A stretch of DNA of 29,153 bases, taken from Candidatus Zhuqueibacterota bacterium. GTDB lineage: Bacteria > BS750m-G25. The position numbers and the translations under genes are program-made. Location of the stretch: the NCBI GenBank assembly GCA_016783505.1, contig JADHWK010000002.1, forward strand, positions 62,001-91,153, read 5' to 3'. Positions 11,041-29,153 of this stretch are shown here, piece by piece. The notes under the pieces were generated by a model. The model saw only the letters and a program-made list of their open reading frames with translations. It had not been told where the DNA came from and did not search any database. The stretch's first letter is position 1; each line of letters starts with the position of its first letter.

Positions 11041-11102
11041 TGCTAACGGATTAGCTCACATTCCCGGCGGCGTTTCGCCGTCCGGTACAGCGGGGATTAG
11101 AA
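11041..11102 (-). other. Integron attC site
   Basis: TTCTAAT-CCCCGCTGTACCGGACGGC-GAAAC-GCCGCCGG...GTGAGCTAATCC-GTTAGCA; GC-rich palindrome in AT-rich DNA. Confidence 0.75.
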
Positions 11103-11170
11103 AGCAAAGACATAAACTCATCCTATCATCCTATTACTTCTGGTGGGGGTTATTAATAATCAATTTTGCT

Positions 11171-11188
11171 TTCTAACTCGTAATTATC
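11171..11188 (-). other. attI-like simple site
   Basis: Minus strand GATAATTACGA-GTTAGAA, about 20 bp downstream of a promoter; the bases after its G pair with the R'' side of the next attC. Confidence 0.45.
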
Positions 11189-11206
11189 TCGATTCAATCC
11201 TTTTCT

Positions 11207-11235
11207 AATTTAAATCATTCACAGGAAAAAGTCAA
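11207..11235 (-). promoter_or_regulatory. sigma70-type promoter facing the cassettes (Pc-like position)
   Basis: TTGACT-17bp-TAAATT. Confidence 0.6.
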
Positions 11236-11390
11236 GCTTTTAATAAGGTAATTTCTGAATTAATCTAATCCCAGATTTGAGTAAAAGTCTTATATTAAAA
11301 AAAACAAAAAGCCTACTCAAGATGAATGAATAGGCCTTGTTTAATAAAAAAGGAGGATTTTGGGAGAATTGACCCTGTTTTTATGGCTAA
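11226..11390 (-). repeat. Terminator+promoter module repeat, copy B
   Basis: Colinear similarity with 13045-13212 along the whole length. Confidence 0.85.
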
Positions 11391-11464
11391 TACCTACGGA
11401 TTAGAAGTCCGTTTGTCGTCTCAATCAATACTAGCCAATAATCACTGAGAGTAATCAGGGCAGG

Positions 11465-11749
11465 TTACATTTCAGAAATCATTTTGTCAAAACGGTCTAC
11501 TGTTACTGCAGGAGATGTGGAAAATGAGATGCCCGTTATTTGACTCAAAGAAACAGATGCTTTCATTGCTTCCTTAGTATTAGGGAAATCCGCTATAATA
11601 ACAAGATCGTATTCTCCTAATAGGGCATACATCGATTTTACTGCACCACCATACTTCTCGATGAGACTGTTACCCCTTTTTGTGCGTTCGGCACTCATTC
11701 CCTTGATAGCCTCCGATGTATACTTTCCAAACATAAAAAATGTTGACAT
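11465..11749 (-). CDS. GYD domain protein
   Basis: 94 aa; KYT..A...GG.V..MY.LLGEYDLV.I.DFP. Confidence 0.9.
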   Translation of the reverse strand: MSTFFMFGKYTSEAIKGMSAERTKRGNSLIEKYGGAVKSMYALLGEYDLVIIADFPNTKEAMKASVSLSQITGISFSTSPAVTVDRFDKMISEM

Positions 11750-11852
11750 GTTTGACCCCTCTAAATTATTAACGGTTATTGAAATGAATTAATATATTAA
11801 ATATAACAATTATTTTAAAAAAAGCAACAATAAAATTGGGATTTCAGGAAAT

Positions 11853-11883
11853 AAAAAACCCCGCATTTAGCGGGGTTTGGTTT
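11853..11883. terminator. Intrinsic terminator after the proteasome-like gene
   Basis: AAACCCCGC-ATTTA-GCGGGGTTT. Confidence 0.8.
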
Positions 11884-11904
11884 ACCAATCAAGAAATCGT
11901 TTTA

Positions 11905-12804
11905 CTATTTAAAAACTATTTTCCTAAGTGCTTCTTTTAGCTCATCTACCCTTTTTGAAATTTTCCCCTTGTTATACTTTCCGTCTTTAATTTCAGGTTC
12001 CTTGTCTGATATATAAACTATTTGAGGATCTCCACCCACATAATCATCAATTTCTTCCCTTATCCAATAAATACAAGCTGCTATTCGAGAGACTATCACT
12101 TTACATTCAAGGGGAATTTTACCGTTATGCCGAGGAAAAAGATATTTCGCTAGTGTTCTGGCATAATCCCTTCCATGTCCAACTAAACAGGCATATTTAA
12201 TTTTCGACCCAAATCCACGGGGGCCAATTTCGTATAATCTCGCATCTCCTTTGCTTAGTTCAGATAAACCCCCCAATATAAAGTGTAAAGGGTATTCTCC
12301 AATTTTGGGCCCGTATCTTTCTTCGGTTTTCTCTACCAAGTCCTCCGCTATCATTTTGATTGAAAGTAAAGAATTAATTTTCCCCTCTTGAATGTTTGCT
12401 ATCAATGTTTTTTCAAATATTTCTATGAAATCATCTATTACCCCTATTATTCCAGCACTGGCAAATATAATAGGAGCTCCTTCCACAGTAGTAATAGTTT
12501 TTACTTTCTTTTCATAATCAGTCTCTCCGCCCCTCATTGTTTTTGTATCTCCCCCAAGAACAATTCCATCTTTTCCTCTCACTCCTATTATTAGAGTAGA
12601 CTTTCCCAGCATGTCCTCACCCAGCATTTTCTTATATAACCACCTCTTATATTTTTCCTTATTAGCTTCATTTAGTTCATCCAAAAGTTGAATTTCTTTT
12701 GGATATGCTATTTTAGGAAAAATCTTCTCTAATCCTTCTATCTCTTTCTTGATTTTCTTCTTTCCCCCAGCATAATTACCAACATCCATCTTCCGCAATT
12801 CCAT
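11905..12804 (-). CDS. Proteasome beta-subunit-like Ntn hydrolase with N-terminal extension
   Basis: TLIIGVRGKDGIVLGGDTK (Thr1/Asp17), KKV, SAG, FILGG, LYEI.P.G, GHG..YA, DDYVGG. Start set at MELRK behind a GGGGGAG RBS (track start 12825). Confidence 0.8.
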   Translation of the reverse strand: MELRKMDVGNYAGGKKKIKKEIEGLEKIFPKIAYPKEIQLLDELNEANKEKYKRWLYKKMLGEDMLGKSTLIIGVRGKDGIVLGGDTKTMRGGETDYEKKVKTITTVEGAPIIFASAGIIGVIDDFIEIFEKTLIANIQEGKINSLLSIKMIAEDLVEKTEERYGPKIGEYPLHFILGGLSELSKGDARLYEIGPRGFGSKIKYACLVGHGRDYARTLAKYLFPRHNGKIPLECKVIVSRIAACIYWIREEIDDYVGGDPQIVYISDKEPEIKDGKYNKGKISKRVDELKEALRKIVFK

Positions 12805-13044
12805 TCTCTCTCCCCCTTCTTTCATTTATAATTATCTATATCTATATTTCTAGGCTTTATTCAAATTCCCATTTGCTAATTTCAGATCATCCCAATCAAA
12901 AAATAAATAATTCCAGGCTTTTCTAAATCATATGGCAAAAACCAGACCAATTTTAAGTGTAGCTGGATCGCTATTTTTGAATGAACTAAAGGGCAAGTTT
13001 TGCCTGGCATGTTTTGAACGAATTCAATATACTAACTTTTTAAA

Positions 13045-13212
13045 AAAAAGTCAAGCCTTTAATACCATAATTTTTGAACTTATCTAAATCCAGTTTTGGA
13101 GGACAGCCAGATATTTAATGAAAAACAAAAAGGCCCACTCAAGATGAATGAATAGACCTTTTTTCATAAAAACGGACAATTTCTGGACAATTGACCCTTA
13201 TTTTATAGCTAA
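13045..13212 (-). repeat. Terminator+promoter module repeat, copy A (adjacent to the groEL terminator)
   Basis: Hairpin GGTCTATTCA/TGAGTGGGCC with U-tract, then TTGACT (13049-13054)-17bp-TATATT (13026-13031). Confidence 0.85.
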
Positions 13213-14915: not shown

Positions 14916-15188
14916 CTATTCTTCCACTATGCCTAAAATATCATCCCTTTTTACAATTAGATATTTCTCCCCCCCGATTTCCACATCCGTTCCCCCGTAC
15001 TTGGCATAGATGATCCGGTCGCCCTTCTTGACCACCTCTTTTAACTCCTCATCATTACCCACCGCCACCACATCCCCCATCTGGGGTTTCTCCTTGGCGG
15101 TGTCTGGTATAATGATGTTGCCTACCTTCCTCTTTTCCTCCTCCAGGGGTTTTACCACTACCCGATCGTCAATCGGAATTATCCTCAT
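14916..15188 (-). CDS. groES: Co-chaperonin GroES (groEL-proximal copy)
   Basis: [41 protein letters not shown]. Confidence 0.97.
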
Positions 15189-15355: not shown

Positions 15356-15673
15356 TTAATCCACCACTACCCCGTGAATATCGGACCGATCCAGAATCAA
15401 AAGTTTCTCCCCCTCTACTTCCACCTCGGTCCCACCGTATTTAGCATAGATGAGCCGATCCCCAACTTTCACCAATTTACTAAATTTCTTCCACTTCTTT
15501 TTCTCCTCCTCTTTGGGCTCCCGATCATTACCCATAGCGATGACTTCCCCGATCTGGGGTTTCTCCTTGGCGGTGTCAGGAATTATGATTCCACCCACCT
15601 TTTTCTCTTCTTCCTCAAGAGTCCTTACCAAGACCCGTTCATCCAAGGGTTTAATTCTCATTTTTCCCTCCAC
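15356..15673 (-). CDS. groES: Co-chaperonin GroES (second copy, with charged insertion)
   Basis: [40 protein letters not shown]; start may be the internal MRIKP. Confidence 0.95.
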   Translation of the reverse strand: MEGKMRIKPLDERVLVRTLEEEEKKVGGIIIPDTAKEKPQIGEVIAMGNDREPKEEEKKKWKKFSKLVKVGDRLIYAKYGGTEVEVEGEKLLILDRSDIHGVVVD

Positions 15674-16326: not shown

Positions 16327-18348
16327 TTAAGATGTTTCCAGTGACTCATAGACCAGTTCAGCGATATCCTTAACGTCCATCTGCCCTTCCCGATCGGTCT
16401 CTTTAATGCCATCGCTGATCATCGTCATACAGAAAGGGCAGGCCAGGGATACGATCCCGGCATTCGTCTCGGCCAACTGATCTACCCGCATTTGGTTGAT
16501 TCGCGATCCGATTTTCTCTTCCAGCCACATCCGGCCGCCGCCGGCGCCACAGCAGAGACCCCGGTGGTGGTGAAGGATAGGTTCCACCAGTTCAAGGCCC
16601 GGGATGCTACTTAAAATCTGGCGTGGGGGGTGATAAATCCGATTGTAGCGGCCCAGATAGCAGGAATCATGGTAAACCACCTTTTCGCCCAGGGGTTTTC
16701 GAAAACGGAACTTCCCCCCTTCAATAAGCTTTTGAATAAACTCAGAATGGTGATACACGCTGAAATCCCCCCCGAATTGGGGATATTCGTTCTTGAAGAC
16801 ATTATAACCATGGGGACAGGTGGTTAAAATCTTCTTCACTCCGTAGCCTTCAAACTGCTCAATGTTAGCCTTGGCCATCATCTGAAAGAGGTACTCGTTT
16901 CCCAGCCGGCGGGCCTGGTCCCCGCAACACCCCTCTTCTGTACCCAGGATGGCAAAGCTTACCCCCGCCCGTTGGAGTAGCTTCGCAAAGCTCCGGCAGA
17001 CTTTCTTGTTCCGCTCATCAAATGCGCCAGCACATCCCACATAGTAGAGATACTCCACCCTTTGGTTTTCTGCCAGGAGGGGTATTTCCAGATCCTGAGC
17101 CCAATCCTGCCTGGAAGCGGCACCGATCCCCCACGGGTTTGAGTTATTCTCCAGGCCCTTGAATACTGGAATAAGCTCGGGGGGAAAAGACGATTCCATA
17201 AGAACCTGATAGCGCCTCTGTTCCACCAGTTTATCGAGGTGTTCGATGAACAGGGGACAGGCTTCCTCGCACCAATGGCAGGTGGTGCACGACCATATTA
17301 CATCCTCTGAAACCACTTCTTCGCTTGTCAGGGCCGGCCCGGGCCACTGCTTATCCCCCATCTTACTCAGAATATAGGGCTGCTTGGCGTAGAGGTGATC
17401 CCGGTAGTCCGTGATAATTCGCTTGGGGGAAAGGGGCTTTTCGGTTAAATGGGCAGGGCAGAACTCCTGACAGCGGCCGCACTCGGTGCAGGAAAACAGG
17501 TCGAGATATTGCTTCCAGGTGAATTCTTCGATCCGGGAGACGCCGAAACTTTCGGCAGCCTCATCCTCCAGGTCCAAGGGCTTCGGGGTTCCAACGGGAC
17601 CCTCATCTTCGAGTCGGGCAAAGAACACATTGGGCAGGGAAGTAATAATATGGAAATGCTTCCCCAGGGGAAGAAGGTTAAGAAAGACAAACAGGGTAAT
17701 GATATGTATCCACCAAGCGGTGATGAAAGTAGCTTTCAGCCCCCCGGCGTCCATCCCGGCAAAAACGCCACACAGAGCAGACTGTATGGGGGACCAGCTG
17801 TGCTTGAGGGGCCCAAAAGCGGCCTCAGTACCGCTCATGACAAAATCGGCGATCATCAGGATACCAATAAGCCCCAGGATGAGATAAGCCTCAGCGGATT
17901 GAGTAATCCGATCCGGCCTTACCACCGCCCGGCGGTAGACGGCGAGGACGACCATGATCAAAACCAGAATCTCAAACACATCCCGAACAGGAATGTAAAC
18001 GGAGCCAAGGGGTGAACCGGGGCTGAAAAAGGGAAGAGCAAATCCAGTTACAAATCCCCCGCCCACGTGATGGATCGTATTAATGGCCACCGCTAGGAAT
18101 CCCCAGAAGATGAAGGCGTGCATGATACCTGAAAGGGGGTCCCCCCCGATGGTGCGCTTTTGACCGATAGCGTAGGTCAATAGCTGTTTAACCCGGGCAC
18201 CCCAGCGGTTAAAGCGGTGATCAGGACGGGCCTTCAGCAAAAGTCCCAGGCGCCCCCAGATGGTATGGGCAAAAAGGACAACGGCCCCCAACACCAGCAC
18301 ACAGTAGAGGACAAAACCCCCCGGAAACGGAGTCGGATCCAGCTTCAA
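16327..18348 (-). CDS. Membrane Fe-S oxidoreductase, FadF/heterodisulfide-reductase-like (probable ETF:quinone oxidoreductase)
   Basis: Cytochrome-b-like TM domain with His ligands; CTECGRCQEFCP and CTTCHWCEEACP; two CCG domains; lies near etfA. Confidence 0.92.
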   Translation of the reverse strand: MKLDPTPFPGGFVLYCVLVLGAVVLFAHTIWGRLGLLLKARPDHRFNRWGARVKQLLTYAIGQKRTIGGDPLSGIMHAFIFWGFLAVAINTIHHVGGGFVTGFALPFFSPGSPLGSVYIPVRDVFEILVLIMVVLAVYRRAVVRPDRITQSAEAYLILGLIGILMIADFVMSGTEAAFGPLKHSWSPIQSALCGVFAGMDAGGLKATFITAWWIHIITLFVFLNLLPLGKHFHIITSLPNVFFARLEDEGPVGTPKPLDLEDEAAESFGVSRIEEFTWKQYLDLFSCTECGRCQEFCPAHLTEKPLSPKRIITDYRDHLYAKQPYILSKMGDKQWPGPALTSEEVVSEDVIWSCTTCHWCEEACPLFIEHLDKLVEQRRYQVLMESSFPPELIPVFKGLENNSNPWGIGAASRQDWAQDLEIPLLAENQRVEYLYYVGCAGAFDERNKKVCRSFAKLLQRAGVSFAILGTEEGCCGDQARRLGNEYLFQMMAKANIEQFEGYGVKKILTTCPHGYNVFKNEYPQFGGDFSVYHHSEFIQKLIEGGKFRFRKPLGEKVVYHDSCYLGRYNRIYHPPRQILSSIPGLELVEPILHHHRGLCCGAGGGRMWLEEKIGSRINQMRVDQLAETNAGIVSLACPFCMTMISDGIKETDREGQMDVKDIAELVYESLETS

Positions 18349-18414
18349 GGGACAATCCTTTCAACCCAGATTCTGGAAACACTGTCGGAACGATCTTGGG
18401 AAACGAGACTGAAA

Positions 18415-18523
18415 TGATTGCTAATTACTGATTGCTGATTGCTGATTGATGCTGGAGCCTGGGTTTTAACAATTGACAACCTGCCCGCCAAGTCTTGGCA
18501 GGCGGGTTAACAATCAACAATTC
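18415..18523. repeat. Heptamer tandem repeats flanking a REP-like palindrome
   Basis: TGATTGC-like units at 18415-18450; AACAATT/C units on both sides of ACCTGCCCGCCAAG-T-CTTGGCAGGCGGGT (18479-18507). Confidence 0.6.
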
Positions 18524-18662
18524 AGTGTTTTTTCGCCACGGCGGACCTTCGGTCAGTGTTGAATTTCCAGATCTTAAGTCAATAATAATCCATTCTTGTA
18601 TACGAAAAACGCACCTGACAAGATGCGCACAATCTATGTAAATGGGGTTAAGGGAAATAACC

Positions 18663-19235
18663 CTAAGGTTTTTGGCCTTTCTCCTGCTCCCCCCCTAACT
18701 TCTTTATCTCATCCCTTAACTTCGCCGCCTTTTCGTAGTCTTCCTTCTCCACCGCCCTCTTTAAATCGAGCTTCAACTTCGTCAGTTTATCAATTCCCTC
18801 ATCAGGGATATGTTTAGCCGTCAACCCCACATCACCGGGAATGGAGGCCTTGCTCATCACATCATCGGCCACGAACACCGGGGCGTTGGTCCTCACGGCC
18901 AGGGCTATGGCATCGGAAGGACGGGCGTCAATGGAGGCCACTTTGTTCAAGTTGCGGAGGATAATCTTGGCAAAGAAGGTGTTATTCTTCAACTCATCAA
19001 CGATAATTTTGTCAATGGTATATCCCATTGAGATCAACAGGCTGAGGATAAGATCGTGGGTTAACGGGCGGGGGGGTTTGATCTTCTCCAGCCCTAAGGC
19101 AATGGATTGAGCCTCAAAGTCCCCCACGATAATGGGCAGGGATCGGTTGCCGTTTACTTCTTTTAAGATCACCCCATTATCGTGAAATTGGGTCATAAAC
19201 AAACCTTTAACTTCAACTCTTATCATTGTTTCCAT
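18663..19235 (-). CDS. Bifunctional nuclease family protein (DUF151) with C-terminal UVR motif
   Basis: LPIIVGDFEAQSIA, PRPLTHDL, IDARPSDAIALA, AVEKEDYEKAAKLRDEI. Start set at METMIR. Confidence 0.93.
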   Translation of the reverse strand: METMIRVEVKGLFMTQFHDNGVILKEVNGNRSLPIIVGDFEAQSIALGLEKIKPPRPLTHDLILSLLISMGYTIDKIIVDELKNNTFFAKIILRNLNKVASIDARPSDAIALAVRTNAPVFVADDVMSKASIPGDVGLTAKHIPDEGIDKLTKLKLDLKRAVEKEDYEKAAKLRDEIKKLGGEQEKGQKP

Positions 19236-19317
19236 TTCAGCCCTTTGTCCACCAATACAATAACAAATCCAATCAACACAATAACTCCAAATCCTAAGAA
19301 AACTGAAGTTAAAGCAT

Positions 19318-20292
19318 TCATTGCTGTACATCCTTTAATGCTTTAGTCAATTCGGGCACAACCTGGAACAGGTCTCCCACGATACCGTAGTCGGCCACCT
19401 TGAAGATGGGGGCATCCTGGTCTTTATTGATGGCCACGATGACCTTAGAGGATTTCATCCCCGCCAGGTGTTGGATGGCCCCGGAAATGCCGCAGGCGAT
19501 GTATAGATTGGGCACCACCACCTTTCCGGTCTGACCCACCTGGTCATCGTGGGTCCGCCAATCGGCGTCTACTGCCGCCCGGGAGGCGCCCACTACCCCC
19601 CCCAGGGCATCGGCCAGCTCTTCGAGAATGCCGAAGTTTTCCGGACCTTTCAACCCCCGACCGCCGGAAACGATGATGTCGGCCTCGGTGAGATCAACCT
19701 TAGCCCCAGCCTTTGCCTTCATTTCAACAACCCGGGCCCGAACTACCCCTTGAAGATCTACGGCGACCTTATTGATGGGGACGGCCTTTCCATCCATTTT
19801 GTCGGGAGGGGGAAACATCTTGGGCCGGAGGGTGATTATCTTTATCTTTGAATTTAGTTGGATGGTTGCGGTTACCTTTCCGGCGTAAACAGGGCGTTTG
19901 ATTACCACCTTACCGTTTTCCGTTCCTATCCCGATACAGTCCTGAACGACGCTGGCCCCCACCCGGGCAGCCACCCGGGCAGCCAGGTCCCGGCCCATAG
20001 CGGTGGCCGCCAGTAGTACTACTTCCGGGGCCTTTTCCTCGATGATCCGGGCCAGGGCTTGGGTATATCCCTCGGTGGAATAGGCTCCCAATTCATCGGA
20101 TTCGGCAACCAGAACCTCATCGGCCCCATAATCCCCCAAGGAACCAGCGTAGGCTTCTACTCCGGAACCGACCACCGCTGCCGCCAGGGGAACCCCCAAA
20201 CTATCGGCTAACCCCTTGCCCGCTCCGAGGGCCTCATAAGCTACCCCACGAAAGTCTCCGTTTCTTCGCTCAGCAAAAACCAAAACCGCCAT
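19318..20292 (-). CDS. etfA: Electron transfer flavoprotein alpha subunit
   Basis: [51 protein letters not shown]. Confidence 0.98.
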
Positions 20293-20302
20293 TTTAAATT
20301 TC

Positions 20303-20353
20303 CTAAATCACATTCACCTCTTCATTCAGCAACCTTACCAACGAGGGCACCTC
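20303..20353 (-). pseudogene. etfB 3' tail remnant (copy 1)
   Basis: Manual translation EVPSLVRLLNEEVNVI*; stop 10 bp before the etfA ATG; resembles the EtfB C-terminus (LV.LL.EEAKVI). Confidence 0.7.
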
Positions 20354-20529
20354 TAACGTTAGTGAAAAATGGATTTAAACTAAAAACAATTTTGAAAACG
20401 AACCCAAGTCAAAAGACCGAAAACAGCGAAGTAACCTACCGTTGGCAGAATTTAAAATTGAAATTGATGGTGAAAGGTCGCAGCCAGTGCATTGAGAGTT
20501 TCGGCAGCCATTTTGTATTATTATTGTAA
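20351..20529 (-). other. Degenerate attC-like site at the island boundary
   Basis: TTACAAT...AAAATGG ... CCATTTT-TCACTAAC-GTTAGAG; arms weak; coincides with the GC step. Confidence 0.45.
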
Positions 20530-20592
20530 AAAAATATTCAATAAATTTAAAATTGTTAATTTAGCGAATAGTAATAACTAAAATAGATATTT

Positions 20593-23500
20593 TCATAATA
20601 CATCTTCCAAATTTATTGCTTTGAAATTTTTAGTATCTTCGGATGCAATCTCTGATAATTTTTGTCGAAATAGATCAAAAAAATCGAAATTACAAGTAGT
20701 AATAATAATTTGTTTTCTGGCTCGAGAAAGACCTATAATAATGTCAACAAAAGATAATGTATTCATTTCATCCATTTGTTGTACGGGATCATCAATTAGA
20801 ATGGTTTGAAGAATTGATATGTTTTGATATATTACTCTGGTTAAAAATATTGATAAGGCTAGAATATTTAACTGTGCTTCACTCAAATAAGAAGAAGGTG
20901 TATACTCAATTTCACCAAAATAATTCTTAAGTAATATATATAAACTTCTTTTTCTTTGATCCTTAGACATTATTGGTTTCAATTGAACTTCATTAAAATA
21001 TTCATGTCGGATAAATTTTTTATATATTTCATTGATTAAAGGGCTATATTGGACTAAGCTTTTTTTAAATGCAGAATAGGATACAGACGATAACTCTTTA
21101 TTTAACTTTCTGAGATTATTATAACAAATTTCCCATCTTTTCTTCTCGTAACTATATTTTTCTATTCTGTTTCGAATATTCTCTGATTCTTCTTTTGTTC
21201 TAATCAGCCCAAAGAGATTGTTCAGATCTTTTATTTTTGAAATTAATTTATAATATTTTTCTTGATCATATACATCTATTTTTAAAGGATCAATACCATC
21301 CTTAATAGAATATTTATCTGAAAGATTATATCTCTGTATTAAAGATTCCATCTCTACTAGATCTTTCTCAATTTCATCAATCCTTTGTTGTAAGATAACC
21401 TTATATTTTAGTTGTTCTTCTAGTTCTTCTAATTCATCTTTATATTCTTTTAGATCAGTCTCTATTTGGTTTATTTCATTATCAATATTATCAATATTTA
21501 AAATTTTATCTTCAGGAATAACCTTAATTATTTCTTCTATTATATTTGATATTGTATCTCTAGTTTCTTTGTGTTTATTTTTGTAATATTCATAATTTAG
21601 ATAATGAATTTTATCAACTATTAATTCTGTTTCATTTCTAATAGATTCGACATCATATTTTTTTATTTCATTTTTTAATTCTAGTAATTGGGAATTAGAT
21701 TTATCAAGCAGTGTTTTTATTTCTTCCTCGGTAATTGATTTCTTTTTACAAACTTTATTTAACAGTTCTTCAAATTCAATTATATCATTTTTCATATCAG
21801 AATTTTCTTTTTCTAATTTTTCCCTTTCCTCTTTTTTGCGCTGAATTATATTTTTTTCTTCTTCTATTGCTAATTTTTTATATTTTTTGTTTATATTAAA
21901 GATAAAATCTTTTAGTTCTTCTCTATATTTTCCATCAGTAATTTGTTTAATTATGTTCTCATTTAACTCATTTTTATCACTATAAGAATTCCCACAACAT
22001 GGACATACAAATTTATCCATTACGTTAAAGTAATCTGTTTTATTTATAATATTTTTTATAACATCAATATCATTATAATCTATGTCCTCAGATTGAATCA
22101 AACCTTTAATTTCATTCTCATGACGATCTAAATAAAAGTCGATTTCCGAAATTATTTTACTATTTTTACTCAATAGTATTTTTTTTACTTCAATTTCTTT
22201 CAGCCTCTTTTTGATATATAGGAAATTCTCTATATTAGCTACTAAATCATTAATTTTCCTACTTAAATCAATTTTACTTTTTTTAAATTCAATCAATTTT
22301 TCCTCGAGTAGTTCTTTCTTTTTAAGTAAGGCTTCATTCTCTTTTCTTTTTATTTCAATTTTTTCTCTTAAATCTTTTTCTTTTGAATATAAGTCTTTAA
22401 ACTCATTAAACCTTGTCTTGAAATCATTCAATATTCTATTATTTTCATTTAGTTCTTTCATTTTACCATTTAATACTTCAATTTTATATTTATTATGCTC
22501 AATAGTTCTAATCTCATTTTTTATGCTACTTTGAACGTTTTCTATATAATAAAGAAAATTATCTGCTTCAATATTAATATTTAGACTACTTAATATGCTA
22601 CTTATTTTTATGTATAATTGATTCAATTTATTAATTGCTCCTTCATGTGTCTTTTTCTTTTCTAATTCATTATTCAATATTTTCATTAAAAGATCACAAG
22701 AAATCATATAGTTATCAATAGGTAATTGACAATCCGTTATACTCTCATCTAACTTTATTCTAATTTCATTTTTTAATTTATCTATCAATTTTTTATATGC
22801 TATAATACCGTATTCTTGGTCTATCTTATGACCTTTTTTTTCAATCTCGGATCTAGTTCTTGGTCCATATTTATGACTAATACTCCTAATATTAGATTTA
22901 TATTCTTTTATCAAATCATCTAAGAGATTAATTTTTATATGTTTAATTTCTGAATATACTCTTGTCAATCGACGTTTTAAAGCTTCAATTTTTCCAAAAC
23001 CAAACATTTCGGAAATTAAATCATATCTGTTTTTTCTTATCTCGTTTTCATCACTTGTATTAACACCATATATAAAATGTCTAATAGAATGTTGCCCAAG
23101 GAAGTGTGTATGTAATAGTATATCCAAATATTCTTTCTTTTTTATTAATTCCTTATTATCAGTTAAGAAAGTTATAATATCCTCATTTTTAACTTGTTTG
23201 TTGTTTAAGAATAAAATGCATTTATTTTTTTGTATTTTTGTTTCAATTTTAAATATATCATTCTTTGATATCCCTGTTATGTCTATTAGTGCTTCATCTT
23301 CCATTGATTCACAATTTATTAAGGCAGAGTATTTTTTCTTAGTTTTTGGTTCCATGTCTGGATCATATTCCAGTCGGTTTATTTTATTAAATATTGAGAA
23401 TTCAACAGCATCAACTATTGAAGTTTTACCTCTTCCATTTTTACCATAAATCACTACTACATCACTATCTAAATCTAATTTTATACTTTTAAAGCATCGA

Positions 23501-24168
23501 AAATTTTTTAACTCTAAAGATTTTATTCTGCTTATTTCTACAGACAGTTCTTCTTTTATAGGTGATACTAATTTTTTTTGCTTTTGCAATTTATTTTTAA
23601 AGTCTTCAGAAAATAACCAGCTATATTTTTCACTTTTTTCTATCTCCTTAACGATTGCCGGAGCTTTTTTTGAAATTAATAAGCTTCTAAGATCTCTATC
23701 AGATATAGTATCCTCTATTAAAGGGATATATTCTCTAAGAACTTTATTTTTATCTGAAATCCAGACTGGTATTCTGTTAGCTAACGACTTTTCAATAATT
23801 TTTTTATTATACTTGTCAGGTAATTCAATAAATACTTTTCTGAAAAAATACTCATTACTTTCAGCCAGAGATAATTCTTCAAATAAATCATTTTCCCGCA
23901 CAACTTTTTCGGGAATTACATAGATAAGATATTGATTTATTTTATTTTTTTCCTTCAGATATAGTTCCCTTTGTAATCCAATCCACGATTTGATAAGTTC
24001 AATATTGTCTGTTATTTGGCAATATAATGAGCTGAATAAATTTTCAGCTTTGAACAGTATATGATCGCTCTCTTCTTCCATTCTATACAGATTATACCCA
24101 AATCTTTTATCACGGCGGATGAAGTCTTCTGCTATATCACCAATTTTAGATAAATTGAAAGCATTCAT
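20593..24168 (-). CDS. Rad50/SbcC-like SMC ABC ATPase with extra ~200-aa N-terminal region
   Basis: LELKNFRCF, Walker A GKNGRGKTS, Q-loop HFLGQ, long coiled coils, Zn-hook CPCC, signature LSEAQ, Walker B/D-loop ILIDDPVQQMD. Confidence 0.9.
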   Translation of the reverse strand: MNAFNLSKIGDIAEDFIRRDKRFGYNLYRMEEESDHILFKAENLFSSLYCQITDNIELIKSWIGLQRELYLKEKNKINQYLIYVIPEKVVRENDLFEELSLAESNEYFFRKVFIELPDKYNKKIIEKSLANRIPVWISDKNKVLREYIPLIEDTISDRDLRSLLISKKAPAIVKEIEKSEKYSWLFSEDFKNKLQKQKKLVSPIKEELSVEISRIKSLELKNFRCFKSIKLDLDSDVVVIYGKNGRGKTSIVDAVEFSIFNKINRLEYDPDMEPKTKKKYSALINCESMEDEALIDITGISKNDIFKIETKIQKNKCILFLNNKQVKNEDIITFLTDNKELIKKKEYLDILLHTHFLGQHSIRHFIYGVNTSDENEIRKNRYDLISEMFGFGKIEALKRRLTRVYSEIKHIKINLLDDLIKEYKSNIRSISHKYGPRTRSEIEKKGHKIDQEYGIIAYKKLIDKLKNEIRIKLDESITDCQLPIDNYMISCDLLMKILNNELEKKKTHEGAINKLNQLYIKISSILSSLNINIEADNFLYYIENVQSSIKNEIRTIEHNKYKIEVLNGKMKELNENNRILNDFKTRFNEFKDLYSKEKDLREKIEIKRKENEALLKKKELLEEKLIEFKKSKIDLSRKINDLVANIENFLYIKKRLKEIEVKKILLSKNSKIISEIDFYLDRHENEIKGLIQSEDIDYNDIDVIKNIINKTDYFNVMDKFVCPCCGNSYSDKNELNENIIKQITDGKYREELKDFIFNINKKYKKLAIEEEKNIIQRKKEEREKLEKENSDMKNDIIEFEELLNKVCKKKSITEEEIKTLLDKSNSQLLELKNEIKKYDVESIRNETELIVDKIHYLNYEYYKNKHKETRDTISNIIEEIIKVIPEDKILNIDNIDNEINQIETDLKEYKDELEELEEQLKYKVILQQRIDEIEKDLVEMESLIQRYNLSDKYSIKDGIDPLKIDVYDQEKYYKLISKIKDLNNLFGLIRTKEESENIRNRIEKYSYEKKRWEICYNNLRKLNKELSSVSYSAFKKSLVQYSPLINEIYKKFIRHEYFNEVQLKPIMSKDQRKRSLYILLKNYFGEIEYTPSSYLSEAQLNILALSIFLTRVIYQNISILQTILIDDPVQQMDEMNTLSFVDIIIGLSRARKQIIITTCNFDFFDLFRQKLSEIASEDTKNFKAINLEDVL

Positions 24169-25933
24169 TTAATGTCTCCTTTATATTATCAACTTTTTTA
24201 TAGCTTTGGCGTGCATTTAATTTATTAATTAGATAGCAAAGAGTTAAAACATATGGATATTTAGGCTTTGTTATTTTATTATAACTGTCGGGTCTTTTCA
24301 TTGTCTTGACAATTTTATTAAGGTTTAAAAGTTCATTAAATCTTTTAGGTTCACCGTTCCAATCCAAATATAAAGGACCTAATCTCTGTAATAGAACTAT
24401 TTGCATATCTCTATACTGAGAAAGTAATAATTCACCTTTTTCTTGTCTAAATTGTAAGTCTTGCATATTATCACAATCAATTATAGAAATAAAAATATCA
24501 TCGCTCTTAATCTTATTTTCTTCAATTTCAATACCTTCATAATTTGTATTAAGCATAGCAAGTGAAACAAAAAAATATTTAAAAGTTCCTTTGTCTTCGT
24601 CCCATAAGTCGCAATTAATAGCTCTTTTGTTTTCTTCTCGAATAAATAATAGGGTTCTAATGACTTCACATGGTCTTTGCATAAATAAATTACAAAACAT
24701 ATTTTCATACATTTCTATATTGCTGAAATATTGCCTTAAGAGATATTTAGAAAATAATGTTTCTATAAAGTCAGAAAAATCATCCAATAAAATTTCTTTA
24801 AATTCATATATTTCTGGAATTTGTTTTATTTCTGTTAATTCAAAATTAGTATTAATCTTTTCTAAACCAGGTTCCTCTATGGGAATTACGTTTTCATCTT
24901 GAAATCGAAATGTTGTATCGTTCATGTTTAAAATAAATGATATCACGCCCGGATATCTTAGTCTCCAAAGTATATACTGAAGGCTGTCTTGTTCTCCAGC
25001 TTCTTTTTTGAATGACTTCCAAGCAAACAAATTCTCTGCTCTCATATCCTTTAATGTTTCAGGAAATCTACCTCTATTCATTACTGCGACATTTGAATTC
25101 CTAAAGTGTTTTACATCTTCTGTATCTACACTGTTTATAGAGCACACCATTGTTTTTGTAGTATCAATTGTATGACTCTTGAAGTAGAGACTTTTTATTA
25201 TTTTAGTGTAGTGATTTCCAATTGGATGTTTATTGTTTTGAATTAAAAACATGAGATCAATTTTCTCATGTCTTGGATTTTTATAAAAATAGTCTAAATC
25301 TTTAAACAAAGTATATATTATAGGCAGTTTACCTCTTTCAAGTATGAAATCTGAACAGATTAAAATCAGTATAGTATATACGCCTAGGTTGAAAATATAT
25401 ATTATTTTGGAAATGAATTGTTGTGTTGTTTCATAACGACTTTTGCTTAATTTTGGTTGGTAATAAATATAATTTTTCCCATTTTTGTCTTTAATCAGAA
25501 TCGCTGCAGTATTGACAAATTTAATATTTCTTCCAAAATCTACTTCGTTAAAATCATCTTTACTATTTGAATTTGAAATTAATTCTAAAAATTGGTTTTT
25601 AGTTATTTGTTCTAAGCCAAAAATAATTATGGTATTTGTATTTATTTCTCCATTTTTTAATTTCACAATCATTAATTCAGCTGCTTCCATACTTACTGAA
25701 AGTTCTGGAAATACTATAAAATTTGGATTACCTTCTGAAAATATATTATTATTATATTTATTTAGTACATTTTCAACTATGTGAATATTATTTTGTTTTT
25801 CCTCTTCCTTAATTTTATAAATTCCATCTTTTTGACATTGTTCTGGCATTTGTACTTTTACAATGCCAATTCGGTTTCTATTAAAATATTCAATATTTGG
25901 TATTTTGATGTCTTTTATCTTAAATTCATTCAT
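24146..25933 (-). CDS. Carbon-nitrogen hydrolase (nitrilase-fold) domain fused to an unknown C-terminal region
   Basis: FIVFPE77LSV, VNTAAI, QPK161LS..E168, LIC193SDF: Glu-Lys-Cys triad in canonical contexts; overlaps the SMC gene by 23 bp. Confidence 0.8.
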   Translation of the reverse strand: MNEFKIKDIKIPNIEYFNRNRIGIVKVQMPEQCQKDGIYKIKEEEKQNNIHIVENVLNKYNNNIFSEGNPNFIVFPELSVSMEAAELMIVKLKNGEINTNTIIIFGLEQITKNQFLELISNSNSKDDFNEVDFGRNIKFVNTAAILIKDKNGKNYIYYQPKLSKSRYETTQQFISKIIYIFNLGVYTILILICSDFILERGKLPIIYTLFKDLDYFYKNPRHEKIDLMFLIQNNKHPIGNHYTKIIKSLYFKSHTIDTTKTMVCSINSVDTEDVKHFRNSNVAVMNRGRFPETLKDMRAENLFAWKSFKKEAGEQDSLQYILWRLRYPGVISFILNMNDTTFRFQDENVIPIEEPGLEKINTNFELTEIKQIPEIYEFKEILLDDFSDFIETLFSKYLLRQYFSNIEMYENMFCNLFMQRPCEVIRTLLFIREENKRAINCDLWDEDKGTFKYFFVSLAMLNTNYEGIEIEENKIKSDDIFISIIDCDNMQDLQFRQEKGELLLSQYRDMQIVLLQRLGPLYLDWNGEPKRFNELLNLNKIVKTMKRPDSYNKITKPKYPYVLTLCYLINKLNARQSYKKVDNIKETLNECFQFI

Positions 25934-25988
25934 AATATTTCTTCAATAATTGTTATTCATAAAATCTATTGTTTAATATTAGAAGGCT

Positions 25989-26122
25989 ACCTAACATTAA
26001 GGATTTTATCCGTAGTTGAGCTAAAAAAATAATACTCTAAAGTTACTCAAGATCAGTATTTTTAAAAATCTCCACAAAACTTCATTCTGTCACGCTCAAT
26101 TGCGGATAAAATCCAGTTGAAT
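25989..26122 (-). other. Integron attC site
   Basis: R'' ATTCAAC and R' GTTAGGT (both consensus); arms GGATTTTATCCG..TTGAGC / GCTCAA..CGGATAAAATCC; 134 bp. Confidence 0.8.
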
Positions 26123-26271
26123 GGAGCCGCATACATGGTAATGCTATGGGGATTTAATCCGAGGTTCTCTGTTTATTATAATCGTTAATATCCAAAAAAA
26201 TCGGTAAGGCTCCATATTTACAATTGCAACCGACAACTGTCATTATATCCAATAAAGCAAAAGTATAAAAG

Positions 26272-26331
26272 TTAAATCACCTTCGCCTCTTCCTTCAACA
26301 ACCTCACTACACGTTGCACTTCCCCTCCCAT
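26272..26331 (-). pseudogene. etfB 3' tail remnant (copy 2)
   Basis: Manual translation MGGEVQRVVRLLKEEAKVI*; GC-richer patch similar to 20303-20341. Confidence 0.7.
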
Positions 26332-26347
26332 CACACCTTTTCCGTAA

Positions 26348-26436
26348 GAATAACGAAAAGCTTAGCTGCCGCCGAGCGAAGCGAGAGAACCGAAACGCGT
26401 AGCGTTTCGGGGGTCAGCTGCAGTGCATTGTTCGAT
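26348..26436 (-). other. Integron attC site
   Basis: ATCGAAC-AATGCACTGCAGCTGAC...GGCAGCTAAGCTTTTC-GTTATTC, starting 1 bp after the GIY-YIG stop; internal hairpin CCGAAACGC/GCGTTTCGG; 89 bp. Confidence 0.85.
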
Positions 26437-26437
26437 T

Positions 26438-26809
26438 TTAGCTTGTTGGGGTGCTTGGTAGATTCACCAGAATAGATGTTCCTCCGGGATCAACTTTATT
26501 ACATTCAGTACTGTAATGATCATATAGATATTTTTCGATTCCATCACGATCGGACTGTTTACCAACCTTTGCATAATGAAATCCTGAGGTGTATTTCACA
26601 TTTTCTTTTATGCAATTATTTTTTTCCTCATCACTCAAGTGCTCCAATAATCGATTCTCAAGATTTGAGGCCTGTCCTATATAGAAGGCTTCCCATCGGT
26701 CACTCTTATATTTTACCCATAAAAGATAAACACCAGCTGACGTCGGTACGTATTTCTTTACTTCGCTCTCATTGTATGGGGTATGAAATGACGACCATTC
26801 TATGTTCAT
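26438..26809 (-). CDS. Stand-alone GIY-YIG nuclease (gene cassette)
   Basis: AGVYLLW...FYIGQASNLENRLLEH...E...CN; AGGAGG RBS; attC on both sides. Confidence 0.88.
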   Translation of the reverse strand: MNIEWSSFHTPYNESEVKKYVPTSAGVYLLWVKYKSDRWEAFYIGQASNLENRLLEHLSDEEKNNCIKENVKYTSGFHYAKVGKQSDRDGIEKYLYDHYSTECNKVDPGGTSILVNLPSTPTS

Positions 26810-26822
26810 TTTTCCTCCTTTC

Positions 26823-26956
26823 TATTAACGGATATGGCATCACCTGCCCAAAGGCTAGGAAGCACCTAACCTACTGATAGGATACTCTGAACTTGGATTT
26901 TAAAATGGTTGGATTTGCACAGAGCCCTTTTGGTCAGGTGAATGCTATGGTTAGCT
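26823..26956 (-). other. Integron attC site
   Basis: AGCTAAC-CATA-GCATTCACCTGACCAAA...TTTGGGCAGGTGATGC-CATATCC-GTTAATA with one unpaired base in the L box; 134 bp. Confidence 0.85.
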
Positions 26957-27008
26957 GCTTATTGTTATTAAAGGAATTAACTTTATCAGATGTAATATAA
27001 AAATAATT

Positions 27009-27545
27009 TTAATTCCCCAATAAAATTTGACTCGAACGTAGATGTAGTAATTCTAAAATATTATCATTCAATATTAAGTCTGTTTTTTTTCTACCTGAAT
27101 GATAGCCTTCAATTGTTGAAGATGGTTGATTTGATAATATTTTTTCTTTCTGACCGTAATTACCAGTCTTTGGATCTCCCCAAATTCTAAAAAATCCTTT
27201 TACTTGATAACTGGAAAATTTTAAACCTTCTAATCCTATATATATATCACCACCATATTGATTGATTGGTACAGTTCTCAGGCTATAATAAGTTGAATAC
27301 GGTAAAAAGAATAAGTGATTATTTATTAAAACATAATATTGATAATCTTCACTATCGAACAAATTCGAAAATTTATCTTTTTTAGGTAAAATCCCATTGC
27401 ATTCATAATTTAATTTTTTATATGTAAATTGTAGCTCAACAATAAAAGGACAAATTACATTTGGAATAGAAGTAATAAAAATATGATCACCAGTTGAAAT
27501 ATTAAATTTGAATTGAGAGCTACGAACAAAACCAGAAGGCGGCAT
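27009..27545 (-). CDS. Hypothetical protein
   Basis: 178-aa ORF, AAGGAG RBS, last gene of a tight three-gene run before an attC. Confidence 0.7.
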   Translation of the reverse strand: MPPSGFVRSSQFKFNISTGDHIFITSIPNVICPFIVELQFTYKKLNYECNGILPKKDKFSNLFDSEDYQYYVLINNHLFFLPYSTYYSLRTVPINQYGGDIYIGLEGLKFSSYQVKGFFRIWGDPKTGNYGQKEKILSNQPSSTIEGYHSGRKKTDLILNDNILELLHLRSSQILLGN

Positions 27546-27560
27546 TTTTACACTCCTTTT

Positions 27561-27983
27561 CTAAAAAATTTTATAAAACTTTTTTAAAAAACTAACTCGA
27601 GATAAATTCGAAACTAATGCAATAAAATACATTGCAAAACTAAGAACCATTAATGCATCATGAGTTGTTTTATCAAGTGGAAGTTTATTTGCAATTCCGT
27701 AAAATATTAAACCTATTAAAATTGAAAAAATAAGAAAAATTATACCATATTTTTCTGAGTCAATAAATTCTCTAACAACTGATTTAATTTTTTCTAACAA
27801 ATCATTACAATAGTCACAATTTCCCTGATAAGTTGAAATTTTTGTTCTTAGTTTTCTCAAATAAAAACCGGCATACAATAAAACAACAACGACAATAATT
27901 ATTGCAATAGAATGATTATAACAAAAAGTTCCTAAAAGTTTTATAAATTCTAAAAAATCTTTATTACTAAAGTAATCATTCAT
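27561..27983 (-). CDS. Hypothetical membrane protein (about 3 TM)
   Basis: Three hydrophobic segments; overlaps the upstream gene's stop. Confidence 0.7.
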   Translation of the reverse strand: MNDYFSNKDFLEFIKLLGTFCYNHSIAIIIVVVVLLYAGFYLRKLRTKISTYQGNCDYCNDLLEKIKSVVREFIDSEKYGIIFLIFSILIGLIFYGIANKLPLDKTTHDALMVLSFAMYFIALVSNLSRVSFLKKFYKIF

Positions 27984-29025
27984 TTTCTACCTTGTATTTT
28001 TCAATCGATGTTAATAATAAATATAAGATAGTTGAACCAATAACACTAAAAATGGCAGCAGATGAATAAGGATTGATAATCTCATTATTTATTATAAGAG
28101 GAATTAAACATAAAACAACTCCCCCAATAATACTTACATAAGCTGATAATCTGTTTAACTTTTTTGAAATGAAGATTAAAATTATTGATGGGAATAAAGC
28201 GAGTTGAAAAGCATAGAATGTATATAGAATATTATCAATACCAGAAACAAATTTTCTAACTACAACATAAAGAATAAAAAATATGAATGTATATGCAATT
28301 GTCCACATTCTGGATTTAGAAAGCTGAGCTTTTTCAGAAATATTACCCTTAAGAATAATATCATAATATGTAGTATATGAAATTGAAGAAATTAAACTAT
28401 CCAAGGTCGAATACATTATAGAAATCATGCAAAAGATGAAAATAAAAATATATATATTGTCTATTAAAGATACGGAGCTAAATGAAGCAGCAGCAAGATT
28501 CTGAAGTGCAGTCCATGCATCTGGAAGATTAAATCCTACATAGCGAAGTGACATGCCAAAGAAAATTGCTATTATCCAAGTTATTGGCGAATAGATTGAA
28601 ATGAAAGAAATAGTCTTACTTAGTTCTTTCCTTAACTTTTCATCATATTTAAAAGATGCTAACCTTTGCCAGCCAGAAATGTCAACTATTTGCCAAAGGC
28701 CATTGGCAAGAAGAAGGCTAATTAAGGATAGTTTTCCAAGTGAAAAAACATTAAAGAATTTCTGTTCTTTCCAAAAGAATGAAAATGAATCTTTTATATT
28801 TAAGTTACTACTTAGGTTAACAATAATAAAAATTGTTCCAATTAAAAAAGCAAAAAGACTTAAATAAAGTGTTGTAGAATACTTTTTAGGAAATACGTTT
28901 GGATTAATAGTGTTAAGTTTTTTAAAAAGAATATTTAATGCTAATAGGCTAAAAAAAGATAGAACAAATAGAATTACTCCAGTATAAACATAGCCATTGT
29001 TTATTACCTTTATATGTATTATCTT
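27976..29025 (-). pseudogene. 5'-truncated sodium:solute symporter (SSS)-like membrane protein
   Basis: Frame stays open upstream of 28554 (LANGLWQIVDISGWQRLAS; later SIMYSTLDS) to an in-frame TAA at 29044-29046, with no standard start codon in between. Confidence 0.65.
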
Positions 29026-29153
29026 GAGGGGGTGTTTACACTTTTATGTTATTGTTCTTTTTTGGGAACCTACTATTTTCTTTTAATAGGGTTATGAATC
29101 ACTGGTCGATAAAGCTTTCTTGCTCAGGTATATTTAACGAACAAAACCGTTTT
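29026..29153. mobile_element. Probable IS end (IS5/IS1182-like terminal repeat); element extends beyond the window
   Basis: GAGGGGGTGTTTACACTTTT lies where the symporter frame loses coherence; a minus-strand frame (..KRFCSLNIPEQESFIDQ*) runs in from the window edge. Confidence 0.4.

What the first reader, a model, noticed from the sequence alone, without database searches (positions are those of the whole stretch)
20303..26347. Two decayed copies of the etfB 3' tail, each just downstream of an attC crossover point
Seen: LVRLLNEEVNVI* (20303-20341, abutting etfA) and VVRLLKEEAKVI* (26272-26310) resemble each other and the EtfB C-terminus. Each follows the GTT of an attC R' box (20357 directly, 26354 within about 25 bp). 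No full etfB is in the window. Known: etfB normally lies directly upstream of etfA, and IntI can insert cassettes at non-canonical genomic sites. Inference: the etfB 3' end is a repeatedly used landing site, with successive blocks each leaving a tail copy, or tails carried in by recombination with relatives' alleles. An intact etfB should lie beyond 29153.
Basis: partly seen in the sequence, partly recalled or inferred. Interest (0 to 1): 0.75.

Follow-up and report, generated by a model that had tools for sequence, protein, structure and literature searches.

The report
Foreign islands stacked at etfB's end
Two orphan copies of the last 16-18 codons of the etfB gene bracket a foreign, AT-rich anti-phage (Lamassu) gene pair that sits where etfB should meet etfA, which looks like mobile islands inserted one after another at the end of etfB rather than integron cassettes.

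Summary
LVRLLNEEVNVI* (20303-20341, minus strand, 10 nt before the etfA start) and VVRLLKEEAKVI* (26272-26310) match the EtfB C-terminus of the nearest relatives at 9 and 10 of 12 residues. The next best of 3133 stop-preceding 12-mers in the window has 5. No etfB body is in the window. In 75 of 80 related loci etfB lies just upstream of etfA, and none has a second tail.

Between the tails lies a 5.9-kb block at about 25% GC, against about 52-58% for the host. It encodes a Lamassu defence pair, LmuA and LmuB. Upstream of tail B lies a second foreign block of at least 2.8 kb.

The attC reading is not supported. Neither GTT has a complementary R'' partner, the flanks fold no better than shuffled sequence, no attC array exists, and no integrase is in the window.

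My best reading (confidence about 0.5) is serial site-specific insertion into the etfB 3' end. Each element carries an etfB-tail mimic, and the Lamassu block is an integrase-less, CIME-like remnant. Whether an intact etfB and a recombinase lie beyond 29153 could not be checked. This is a new member of a known kind, of moderate interest.

The parts
19318..20292 (-). etfA, intact, 324 aa
   Evidence: Pfam ETF 9.3e-46 and ETF_alpha 2.3e-37. GC 57.6%.
20303..20353 (-). Tail A: orphan etfB 3' fragment, (LE)VPSLVRLLNEEVNVI*. The robust part is 20303-20341. It lies 10 nt upstream of the etfA ATG.
   Evidence: 9/12 to the L045 EtfB end; profile positions 244-259. An in-frame stop lies 9 codons upstream of the E-V, read. 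It deviates from the EEAKVI seen in the closest relatives.
20354..20592 (-). Arm A: non-coding stretch between the lmuB stop and tail A. It holds the GTT at 20357 and the CTAACGTTAG palindrome.
   Evidence: GC 36.5% near the tail and 12.5% further away. It folds no better than shuffles, z +0.16 to +0.46. No R'' partner for GTTAGAG.
20593..24168 (-). lmuB, 1191 aa, SMC/Rad50-like ATPase of Lamassu, with a 213-aa N-terminal extension
   Evidence: PADLOC LmuB PDLC03865 6e-64, residues 214-1173. Pfam SMC_N/AAA_23. PDB Rad50/PtuA head matches. GC 24.4%.
24146..25933 (-). lmuA, 595 aa, Lamassu effector subunit; overlaps lmuB by 23 nt
   Evidence: PADLOC LmuA PDLC03850 1.4e-23. No Pfam, NCBIfam or PDB match. 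GC 26.1%.
25934..26271 (-). Spacer between tail B and lmuA, with a 114-nt hairpin (21-nt arms at 26001-26021 and 26094-26114)
   Evidence: z -4.45 on the minus strand, -7.24 on the plus strand.
26272..26325 (-). Tail B: orphan etfB 3' fragment, GEVQRVVRLLKEEAKVI*. It may extend to GKGVMGG (26343).
   Evidence: 10/12; profile positions 242-259, E 0.036. An in-frame stop lies at 26362-26364.
26326..26437 (-). Arm B: GC-rich imperfect palindrome (26354-26434) with a perfect 9-bp inner hairpin; holds the GTT at 26354
   Evidence: GC 52.7%. DNA fold -18.3 kcal/mol, z -1.23. The R boxes are only 3 of 7 complementary, read; no better partner.
26438..26809 (-). GIY-YIG nuclease-domain protein, 123 aa (second foreign block)
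   Evidence: Pfam GIY-YIG 7.7e-05. Weak NCBIfam matches to UvrC and to the group I intron endonuclease, both below cut-off.
27009..29037 (-). Rest of the second foreign block: 178-aa unknown, 140-aa membrane protein, and a membrane ORF 27976-28554 that stays open upstream to 29037
   Evidence: GC 22-27%.

Best explanation
The 3' end of etfB, about its last 16-18 codons, serves as an attachment site for integrative elements. Each incoming element carries its own copy of that tail. Insertion therefore leaves etfB with a complete C-terminus and pushes the previous tail downstream. At least two insertions happened here. Tail A, still joined to etfA by the native 10-nt spacer, would be the original end of etfB. 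Tail B would have arrived with the Lamassu block and served as the etfB end until a second block (GIY-YIG gene plus three unknown genes) inserted at the same point. The Lamassu block has no recombinase of its own. It is what the streptococcal literature calls a cis-mobilizable element: att sites kept, integration genes lost, stacked with a newer element by accretion. Shown: the tails, their position, the foreign composition, the Lamassu identity and the normal etfB-etfA adjacency in relatives. Inferred: the recombinase, the order of events, the intact etfB with a third tail beyond 29153, and which tail came with which block.
For: The tails are genuine EtfB C-terminal fragments far beyond chance. 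They flank the Lamassu block as direct repeats, 30/35 nt identical. By the profile alignment both begin within 2 codons of the same EtfB position, 244 and 242 of 259, as a fixed crossover predicts. The similarity ends at the stop codon, as expected if the copy only has to restore the reading frame. Tail B is as far from tail A (31/39) as from the L045 etfB end (32/39), so it is not a fresh local duplication. Tail A departs from the EEAKVI kept by the six closest relatives that have it, consistent with loss of selection after displacement. The blocks are foreign: 22-27% GC against 57.6% for etfA. They carry a defence system. Relatives show the empty arrangement. In 73 of the 75 loci with an etfB match it ends within 173 nt of etfA, and none of the 80 loci has a second tail. 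Tandem accretion with integrase-less CIMEs at the 3' end of a target gene is a described process (passage in PMC5704250, section 2.3).
Against: No integrase or other recombinase is in the 8.9 kb upstream of etfA. The intact etfB and a third tail were not seen. The longest exact run shared by the tails is 8 nt, a weak candidate for a crossover core. The two arms upstream of the tails are not demonstrably related. They share 15 6-mers against 5.0 +/- 2.8 in shuffles, but 23 of 2857 windows of the same contig do as well, including unrelated host DNA. Tail B may carry extra etfB-like residues (GKGVMGG) that tail A lacks, which would put the two boundaries 6-7 codons apart. There is only one genome and no evidence of excision.
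Confidence: 0.5

Rival explanations
1. Integron-type capture. The blocks are gene cassettes ending in attC sites, inserted by an integron integrase at GTT secondary sites in the etfB 3' end.
For: GTT triplets lie at the edge of tail A (20357) and 29 nt upstream of tail B (26354). Arm B is an ~80-nt imperfect palindrome with bulges, placed right after an ORF, as an attC would be. Defence systems do occur in integron cassettes (abstracts and passages of bioRxiv 10.1101/2024.07.02.601686 and 10.1101/2024.07.02.601719).
Against: Neither GTT heptamer fits GTTRRRY. No R'' partner reaches 6 of 7 complementary bases, and the ends do not pair in any fold. None of the six folds beats shuffles, z -1.23 to +0.46. 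The window-wide rule-based scan gives no enrichment in the island, and its best candidates lie in ordinary host genes. There is no attC-like site after the other island ORFs. No IntI is in the window. The block is 5.9 kb with two genes, while integron defence cassettes are reported to be small. An integron crossover would not explain why about 50 nt of etfB tail starts the cassette.
Confidence: 0.1
2. Hot-spot turnover without a dedicated recombinase. DNA from other lineages entered between the conserved genes etfB and etfA by homologous or homology-facilitated illegitimate recombination, with the conserved etfB tail as one anchor. Imperfect events left extra tail copies.
For: Defence hot spots flanked by core genes, often with no identifiable mobility genes, are described (passages of PMC10121019). 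No recombinase is in the window. The tails are as diverged from each other as from another phylum's allele. The arms are not clearly homologous. In L045 a small PD-(D/E)XK gene also sits between etfB and etfA without any tail copy.
Against: A 36-50-nt anchor at 80-86% identity is short for homologous recombination. This is general knowledge and was not tested here. Both tails start at nearly the same EtfB position and both end at the stop codon, which random illegitimate joints would not predict.
Confidence: 0.25
3. In-situ duplication: a long target-site duplication or a local tandem duplication of the etfB end, made when the Lamassu block inserted and followed by decay.
For: Direct repeats flank one inserted block.
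Against: The copies differ at 8 of 39 nt and are no closer to each other than to L045, while lmuA and lmuB remain intact. Target duplications of about 40-50 nt are not a feature of known transposition mechanisms (recalled, not tested). I saw no terminal inverted repeats at the block ends when reading.
Confidence: 0.07
4. Assembly chimera: the host contig and AT-rich DNA from another organism were joined wrongly.
For: There is a sharp GC step at about 20.5 kb. The window is probably a metagenomic contig; this is an inference, drawn from the fact that all the nearest relatives are MAGs.
Against: A second etfB tail and a 52.7% GC arm sit inside the AT-rich DNA, which a simple mis-join does not produce. 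The tails share at most 8 identical nt in a row, too short to mislead an assembler.
Confidence: 0.05

Closest known systems
Tandem accretion of ICE/IME-type islands with cis-mobilizable elements (CIMEs) at the 3' end of a protein-coding gene, e.g. ICESt1/ICESt3 at fda in Streptococcus thermophilus
   Same: Islands lie in series downstream of a conserved gene. [quoted passage not shown] One block has att-like repeats but no integration genes (passage of PMC5704250).
   Different: No integrase, relaxase or conjugation gene is visible here. The repeats are only 80-86% identical, with at most 8 identical nt in a row. The target is etfB, for which my two searches found no report. The host is an uncultivated lineage.
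Integron gene cassettes and attC sites, including clusters of attC sites lacking an integrase
   Same: Co-oriented foreign genes are followed by a palindromic non-coding element (arm B). Defence systems occur as cargo.
   Different: The defining R''/R' pairing was tested and not met. Only one of the two sites has a hairpin. There is no array, and the cargo is large and multi-gene.
Defence-island hot spots between conserved core genes
   Same: A Lamassu system and unknown genes sit between two genes that are adjacent in relatives, with no obvious mobility genes.
   Different: Here each block is followed by a copy of the upstream gene's last codons, which points to a defined insertion point.
Lamassu (LmuA/LmuB) anti-phage systems
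   Same: LmuA and LmuB profile matches, with adjacent overlapping genes.
   Different: No LmuC-like third gene. LmuB has a 213-aa N-terminal extension with no family match. The LmuA effector domain is unassigned, with only a weak nitrilase-like PADLOC match, E 0.001.

Membership tests
EtfB C-terminus (identity of the tails) | Sequence match to the last ~12-18 residues of EtfB, ending at a stop codon | tested here: met
   9/12 and 10/12 identities against a next best of 5/12 among 3133 12-mers. Profile positions 244-259 and 242-259 of 259.
EtfB C-terminus (identity of the tails) | etfB lies directly upstream of etfA in relatives | tested here: met
   75 of 80 loci. Four of the other five have under 310 nt of upstream DNA. 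L007 has none within 10 kb.
Integron cassette / attC | Inverse core sites R'' (RYYYAAC) and R' (GTTRRRY) that are complementary to each other | tested here: not met
   GTTAGAG and GTTATTC do not fit GTTRRRY. The best partners give at most 5/7 and no end pairing.
Integron cassette / attC | Imperfect hairpin of about 57-141 nt between the R boxes | tested here: inconclusive
   Arm B folds into an ~80-nt bulged hairpin, but z is only -1.23 (DNA) and -0.77 (RNA). Arm A has no such fold, z +0.16 to +0.46.
Integron cassette / attC | Array of attC sites, one after each cassette | tested here: not met
   The rule-based scan finds only weak candidates in 20.3-29.2 kb (-7.8 kcal/mol or weaker), poorer than those in host genes.
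Integron cassette / attC | IntI integrase and attI next to the array | tested here: not met
   None of the 23 window ORFs scanned has an integrase domain. Beyond 29153 this is not testable.
Site-specific integrative island with accretion (CIME-like) | Direct repeats at both ends that include the 3' end of the target gene | tested here: met
   Tails A and B flank the Lamassu block, 30/35 nt identical.
Site-specific integrative island with accretion (CIME-like) | A recombinase gene in at least one element of the tandem | tested here: not met
   None in the window. The element next to etfB would lie beyond 29153, which is not testable.
Site-specific integrative island with accretion (CIME-like) | Target gene kept intact by the element-borne tail | not testable with these tools
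   No etfB body in the window. The source genome is not among the loci fetched.
Site-specific integrative island with accretion (CIME-like) | Identical core shared by the att sites | tested here: inconclusive
   The longest exact runs are 8, 7 and 6 nt.
Site-specific integrative island with accretion (CIME-like) | Foreign composition and accessory cargo | tested here: met
   22-27% GC against 57.6% for etfA. Lamassu genes as cargo.
Lamassu defence system | Adjacent LmuA effector and LmuB SMC-like ATPase | tested here: met
   PADLOC LmuA 1.4e-23 and LmuB 6e-64. The genes overlap by 23 nt.
Lamassu defence system | Protection against phage | not testable with these tools
   Needs expression and phage challenge.

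The most novel reading that the evidence does not exclude
The blocks are units of a cassette-like stacking system that is not an integron. Each unit would consist of an etfB-tail mimic, cargo (here a defence system) and a palindromic end. A recombinase encoded elsewhere would insert the units in series at a fixed point in the etfB coding tail. A housekeeping gene's C-terminal codons would then play the role that attI plays in integrons.
Probability: 0.12. Interest if true: 0.7.

Novelty: new member of a known kind. Interest (0 to 1): 0.35.

Why it matters
If the reading holds, it adds etfB to the protein-coding genes whose 3' ends serve as landing sites for mobile islands. It also shows a Lamassu system travelling as an integrase-less block in a poorly sampled lineage; the best EtfA match among the species-representative genomes scanned is 50% identical. 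The orphan tails are a simple, searchable footprint: a copy of a conserved gene's last codons with no gene in front. That footprint could be used to map island boundaries and to count successive insertions in metagenomic contigs where no integrase is assembled. The practical caution is that a GTT and a nearby palindrome are not enough to call an attC.

Tried and rejected
- attC by folding: six folds of both arms on both strands gave z from -1.23 to +0.46.
- attC by rule: the scan required R''/R' with at least 6/7 complementary bases, 50-160 nt apart, with the ends paired in the fold. It gave 36 candidates in the whole window. Targeted partner searches for both GTTs also failed. In one search I used a wrong coordinate for site A; one search repeated it correctly.
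- Rfam: nothing at gathering scores. At E up to 5 in 20200-29153 there were only two chance-level hits.
- Homology between the two arms: the local alignment score was 21, against a shuffle mean of 15.8 and maximum of 22. Shared k-mers were nominally enriched, with 6 of 2000 and 14 of 2000 shuffles doing as well. The within-contig control matched or exceeded them in 23 and 30 of 2857 windows, including unrelated host DNA. I left this as inconclusive.
- A second etfB piece in tail B: tblastn paired RYSYGKGVMGG with the conserved PRYxxLKGIM motif, but the EtfB profile gave no such second match. Rejected.
- More tails or etfB pieces in the window: none. The output was cut, and I saw only its first and last parts.
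- Tail duplications in relatives: none in 80 loci.
- LmuA against plasmid and phage records and against PDB sequences: no match, so no related context could be fetched.
I did not pursue it.
- ESM Atlas for two proteins of the second block: the 178-aa protein got no usable hit (0.82). The membrane ORF resembles short sodium:solute-symporter-like proteins (0.96), which is a lead only.
- Promoter and terminator scan: 67 promoter-like sites against 54.6 +/- 8.5 in shuffles, so the two sites in arm A that face etfA are not evidence.
- Literature on etfB as an integration target: the two searches returned only papers in which the terms are unrelated (passages read).


Full report
**What is at the coordinates.** Almost all genes of the window lie on the minus strand.
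- etfA is 19318-20292: 324 aa, with full-length Pfam ETF and ETF_alpha matches.
- Ten nucleotides upstream of its ATG, the minus strand reads LVRLLNEEVNVI followed by TAG (20303-20341).
- At 26272-26310 it reads VVRLLKEEAKVI followed by TAA.

**Are the tails more than chance?** I fetched 80 loci encoding EtfA relatives from the species-representative genome collection. The best are only about 50% identical in EtfA: a Deltaproteobacteria MAG, a Bacteroidota MAG, an Ignavibacteria MAG and an Omnitrophota MAG. None is the source genome.

In the closest loci the gene upstream of etfA ends in ...ELV[KR]LLREEAKVI. Against LVRLLREEAKVI of locus L045, tail B has 10 of 12 identities and tail A 9 of 12. 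The next best of all 3133 stop-preceding 12-mers in the six frames of the window has 5.

I built a profile from 71 EtfB sequences translated from the loci. It aligns tail B to profile positions 242-259 of 259 and tail A to 244-259. These rank second and fourth of 1510 six-frame pieces. First is EtfA itself, whose N-terminal domain is a paralogue of EtfB. No other piece of etfB is in the window.

Both tails are orphan fragments. An in-frame stop lies 9 codons before the E-V of tail A, and another lies at 26362-26364 before tail B.

**How the tails relate to each other.**
- At DNA level they share 30 of 35 nt, or 31 of the last 39.
- The 15 nt further upstream match at only 6 of 15.
- The similarity stops at the stop codon.
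- Tail A is as similar to the etfB end of the Bacteroidota MAG L045 (31/39) as to tail B, and tail B is slightly closer to L045 (32/39).

The two tails are therefore different alleles of the same short segment, not a recent duplicate pair. Tail B keeps the EEAKVI found in the closest relatives. Tail A has EEVNVI, as expected for a copy that has been out of use longer.

**What lies between and beyond the tails.** GC content falls from 57.6% in etfA to 24-26% between the tails and 22-27% in most of the DNA upstream of tail B.

The two large ORFs between the tails are a Lamassu defence pair:
- The 595-aa protein matches PADLOC LmuA (1.4e-23).
- The 1191-aa protein matches LmuB (6e-64 over residues 214-1173). 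It has SMC/Rad50-type head motifs.
- The two genes overlap by 23 nt.

Upstream of tail B, in order, are:
- a 112-nt GC-rich arm (52.7% GC) containing an ~80-nt imperfect palindrome;
- a 123-aa GIY-YIG domain protein;
- a 178-aa protein with no family match;
- a 140-aa membrane protein;
- a membrane ORF that runs to about 29037.

No integrase or other recombinase domain was found in any of the 23 ORFs scanned.

**The normal arrangement.** In 75 of the 80 loci an etfB match ends just upstream of etfA. In 73 of these the distance is -32 to 173 nt.
- L004 (283 nt) is explained by an N-terminal extension of its EtfA ORF.
- L045 (582 nt) has a 125-aa PD-(D/E)XK (PF13366) gene between the two.
- Of the other five loci, four have less than 310 nt of upstream DNA. 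One, L007, has no etfB within 10 kb.

Tail-like 12-mers occur once per locus, at the real etfB end, in 8 loci and never twice. The 8.9 kb of foreign DNA upstream of etfA and the duplicated tails are thus peculiar to this window among what I could examine.

**The attC claim.** GTT triplets are at 20357 and 26354 on the minus strand. However, GTT occurs every ~65 nt there, and seven lie within 120 nt of tail A.
- GTTAGAG and GTTATTC do not fit GTTRRRY.
- For neither is there an R'' partner 30-240 nt upstream with more than 5 of 7 complementary bases. In no case do the ends pair in the minimum-energy fold.
- Arm B does fold into a bulged hairpin (-18.3 kcal/mol as DNA). Shuffles average -15.3 (z -1.23), and its terminal pairing is not in AAC/GTT register.
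- Arm A folds no better than shuffles.
- A window-wide rule-based scan finds its most stable candidates in ordinary host genes and only weak ones in the island.
- The GTT at 26354 is 29 nt upstream of the profile-supported start of tail B.
- Integron-borne defence systems are reported to be small and streamlined (passages of bioRxiv 10.1101/2024.07.02.601686). This block is 5.9 kb.

I conclude that the integron mechanism is not supported, although arm B remains an unexplained palindrome.

**Best explanation.** The pattern has five elements:
- direct repeats consisting of the 3' end of a conserved gene;
- foreign cargo between them;
- the copy nearest the downstream gene keeping the native junction;
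- both copies starting at nearly the same position of the gene;
- both copies ending at its stop codon.

This is the footprint of site-specific integration into the 3' end of a gene by elements that carry a replacement end, repeated at least twice. The integrase-less Lamassu block flanked by att-like repeats corresponds to a cis-mobilizable element. Stacking with a newer element corresponds to accretion, as described for streptococcal ICE/IME tandems (passage of PMC5704250, section 2.3). The original papers cited there were not read.

I hold this at about 0.5, for four reasons:
- no recombinase and no intact etfB were seen;
- the longest identical run between the tails is 8 nt;
- the two arms are not demonstrably related;
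- tail B may carry 6-7 more etfB-like codons than tail A (not supported by the profile).

Which tail came with which block also depends on where in the repeat the crossover lies, and that is unknown.

**Rivals.**
- Hot-spot turnover by homologous or illegitimate recombination between conserved flanking genes (0.25) fits the lack of mobility genes and published hot spots without identifiable mobilization (passages of PMC10121019). It does not predict the shared boundaries.
- Integron capture: 0.1.
- In-situ duplication: 0.07. It is disfavoured by the divergence pattern.
- Assembly chimera: 0.05. It is disfavoured by a second tail and a GC-rich arm inside the AT-rich DNA.

**What stayed unchecked.**
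- The contig could not be extended.
- LmuA has no match in the plasmid, phage or PDB sets, so no related context could be fetched.
- Two literature searches for etfB as an integration target found nothing relevant. That covers only the held open-access library.

**Verdict.** The landing-site idea is the best reading, and the attC/IntI mechanism is not supported. The thing is most likely a new example of a known process, carrying a Lamassu system, in a poorly sampled lineage.

Noticed in passing
window 7717-7782, 9642-9733, 11215-11390, 13034-13212: A repeated intergenic module on the minus strand. It consists of a terminator-like hairpin with a T run (AAGGCCTATTCATTCATCTTGAGTAGGCTTTTTGTTTTTT), followed about 60-70 nt later by a conserved ...ATATTAAAGGCTTGACTTTTT box resembling a -35 element. 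The copies are 61-83% identical. They separate groEL, a proteasome-like/GYD pair, two unknown ORFs and a PEGA/CsgG-like lipoprotein gene.
   Followed up: partly
window 9500-13000: A second lower-GC stretch (32-37% GC) inside host DNA. It holds a GYD-domain protein, a 306-aa proteasome-subunit-like protein and two ORFs with no family match, bounded by the repeat modules above.
   Followed up: no
window 14916-15188 and 15356-15673: Two tandem groES (Cpn10) paralogues upstream of groEL. 165 nt of the two genes are 73% identical. The upstream copy has an insert rich in Lys and Glu.
   Followed up: no
window 26001-26114: A 114-nt hairpin with 21-nt arms lies between tail B and lmuA. It is far more stable than shuffles: z -4.45 on the minus strand and -7.24 on the plus strand, where the two mismatches become G-U pairs. 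No Rfam match.
   Followed up: partly
window 27976-29037: The membrane-protein ORF is open for about 480 nt upstream of its first ATG (28554), with no ATG, GTG or TTG in that stretch. This suggests an unusual start codon or a 5'-truncated gene. The ESM Atlas features resemble short sodium:solute-symporter-like proteins (score 0.96), a lead only.
   Followed up: partly
window 23530-24168: LmuB carries a 213-aa N-terminal extension ahead of the ATPase head. It has no Pfam or PADLOC match, and no separate LmuC-like gene is present.
   Followed up: partly
L045 8646-9023: In the Bacteroidota MAG, a 125-aa PD-(D/E)XK nuclease gene (PF13366, 2.3e-37) sits between etfB and etfA without any tail duplication. 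This is a second case of a small nuclease gene at this junction, alongside the GIY-YIG gene of the window.
   Followed up: partly
window 16327-19331: Downstream of etfA lie a bifunctional-nuclease/UVR-domain protein, which overlaps the etfA end by 14 nt, and a 673-aa membrane-anchored Fe-S/CCG-domain oxidoreductase. The latter is the kind of partner expected for an ETF-linked electron route.
   Followed up: no
L007 1-10000: The Zixiibacteriota MAG locus has etfA with no etfB detected in the 10 kb upstream. It is the only one of the 76 loci with at least 310 nt of upstream DNA that lacks it.
   Followed up: no
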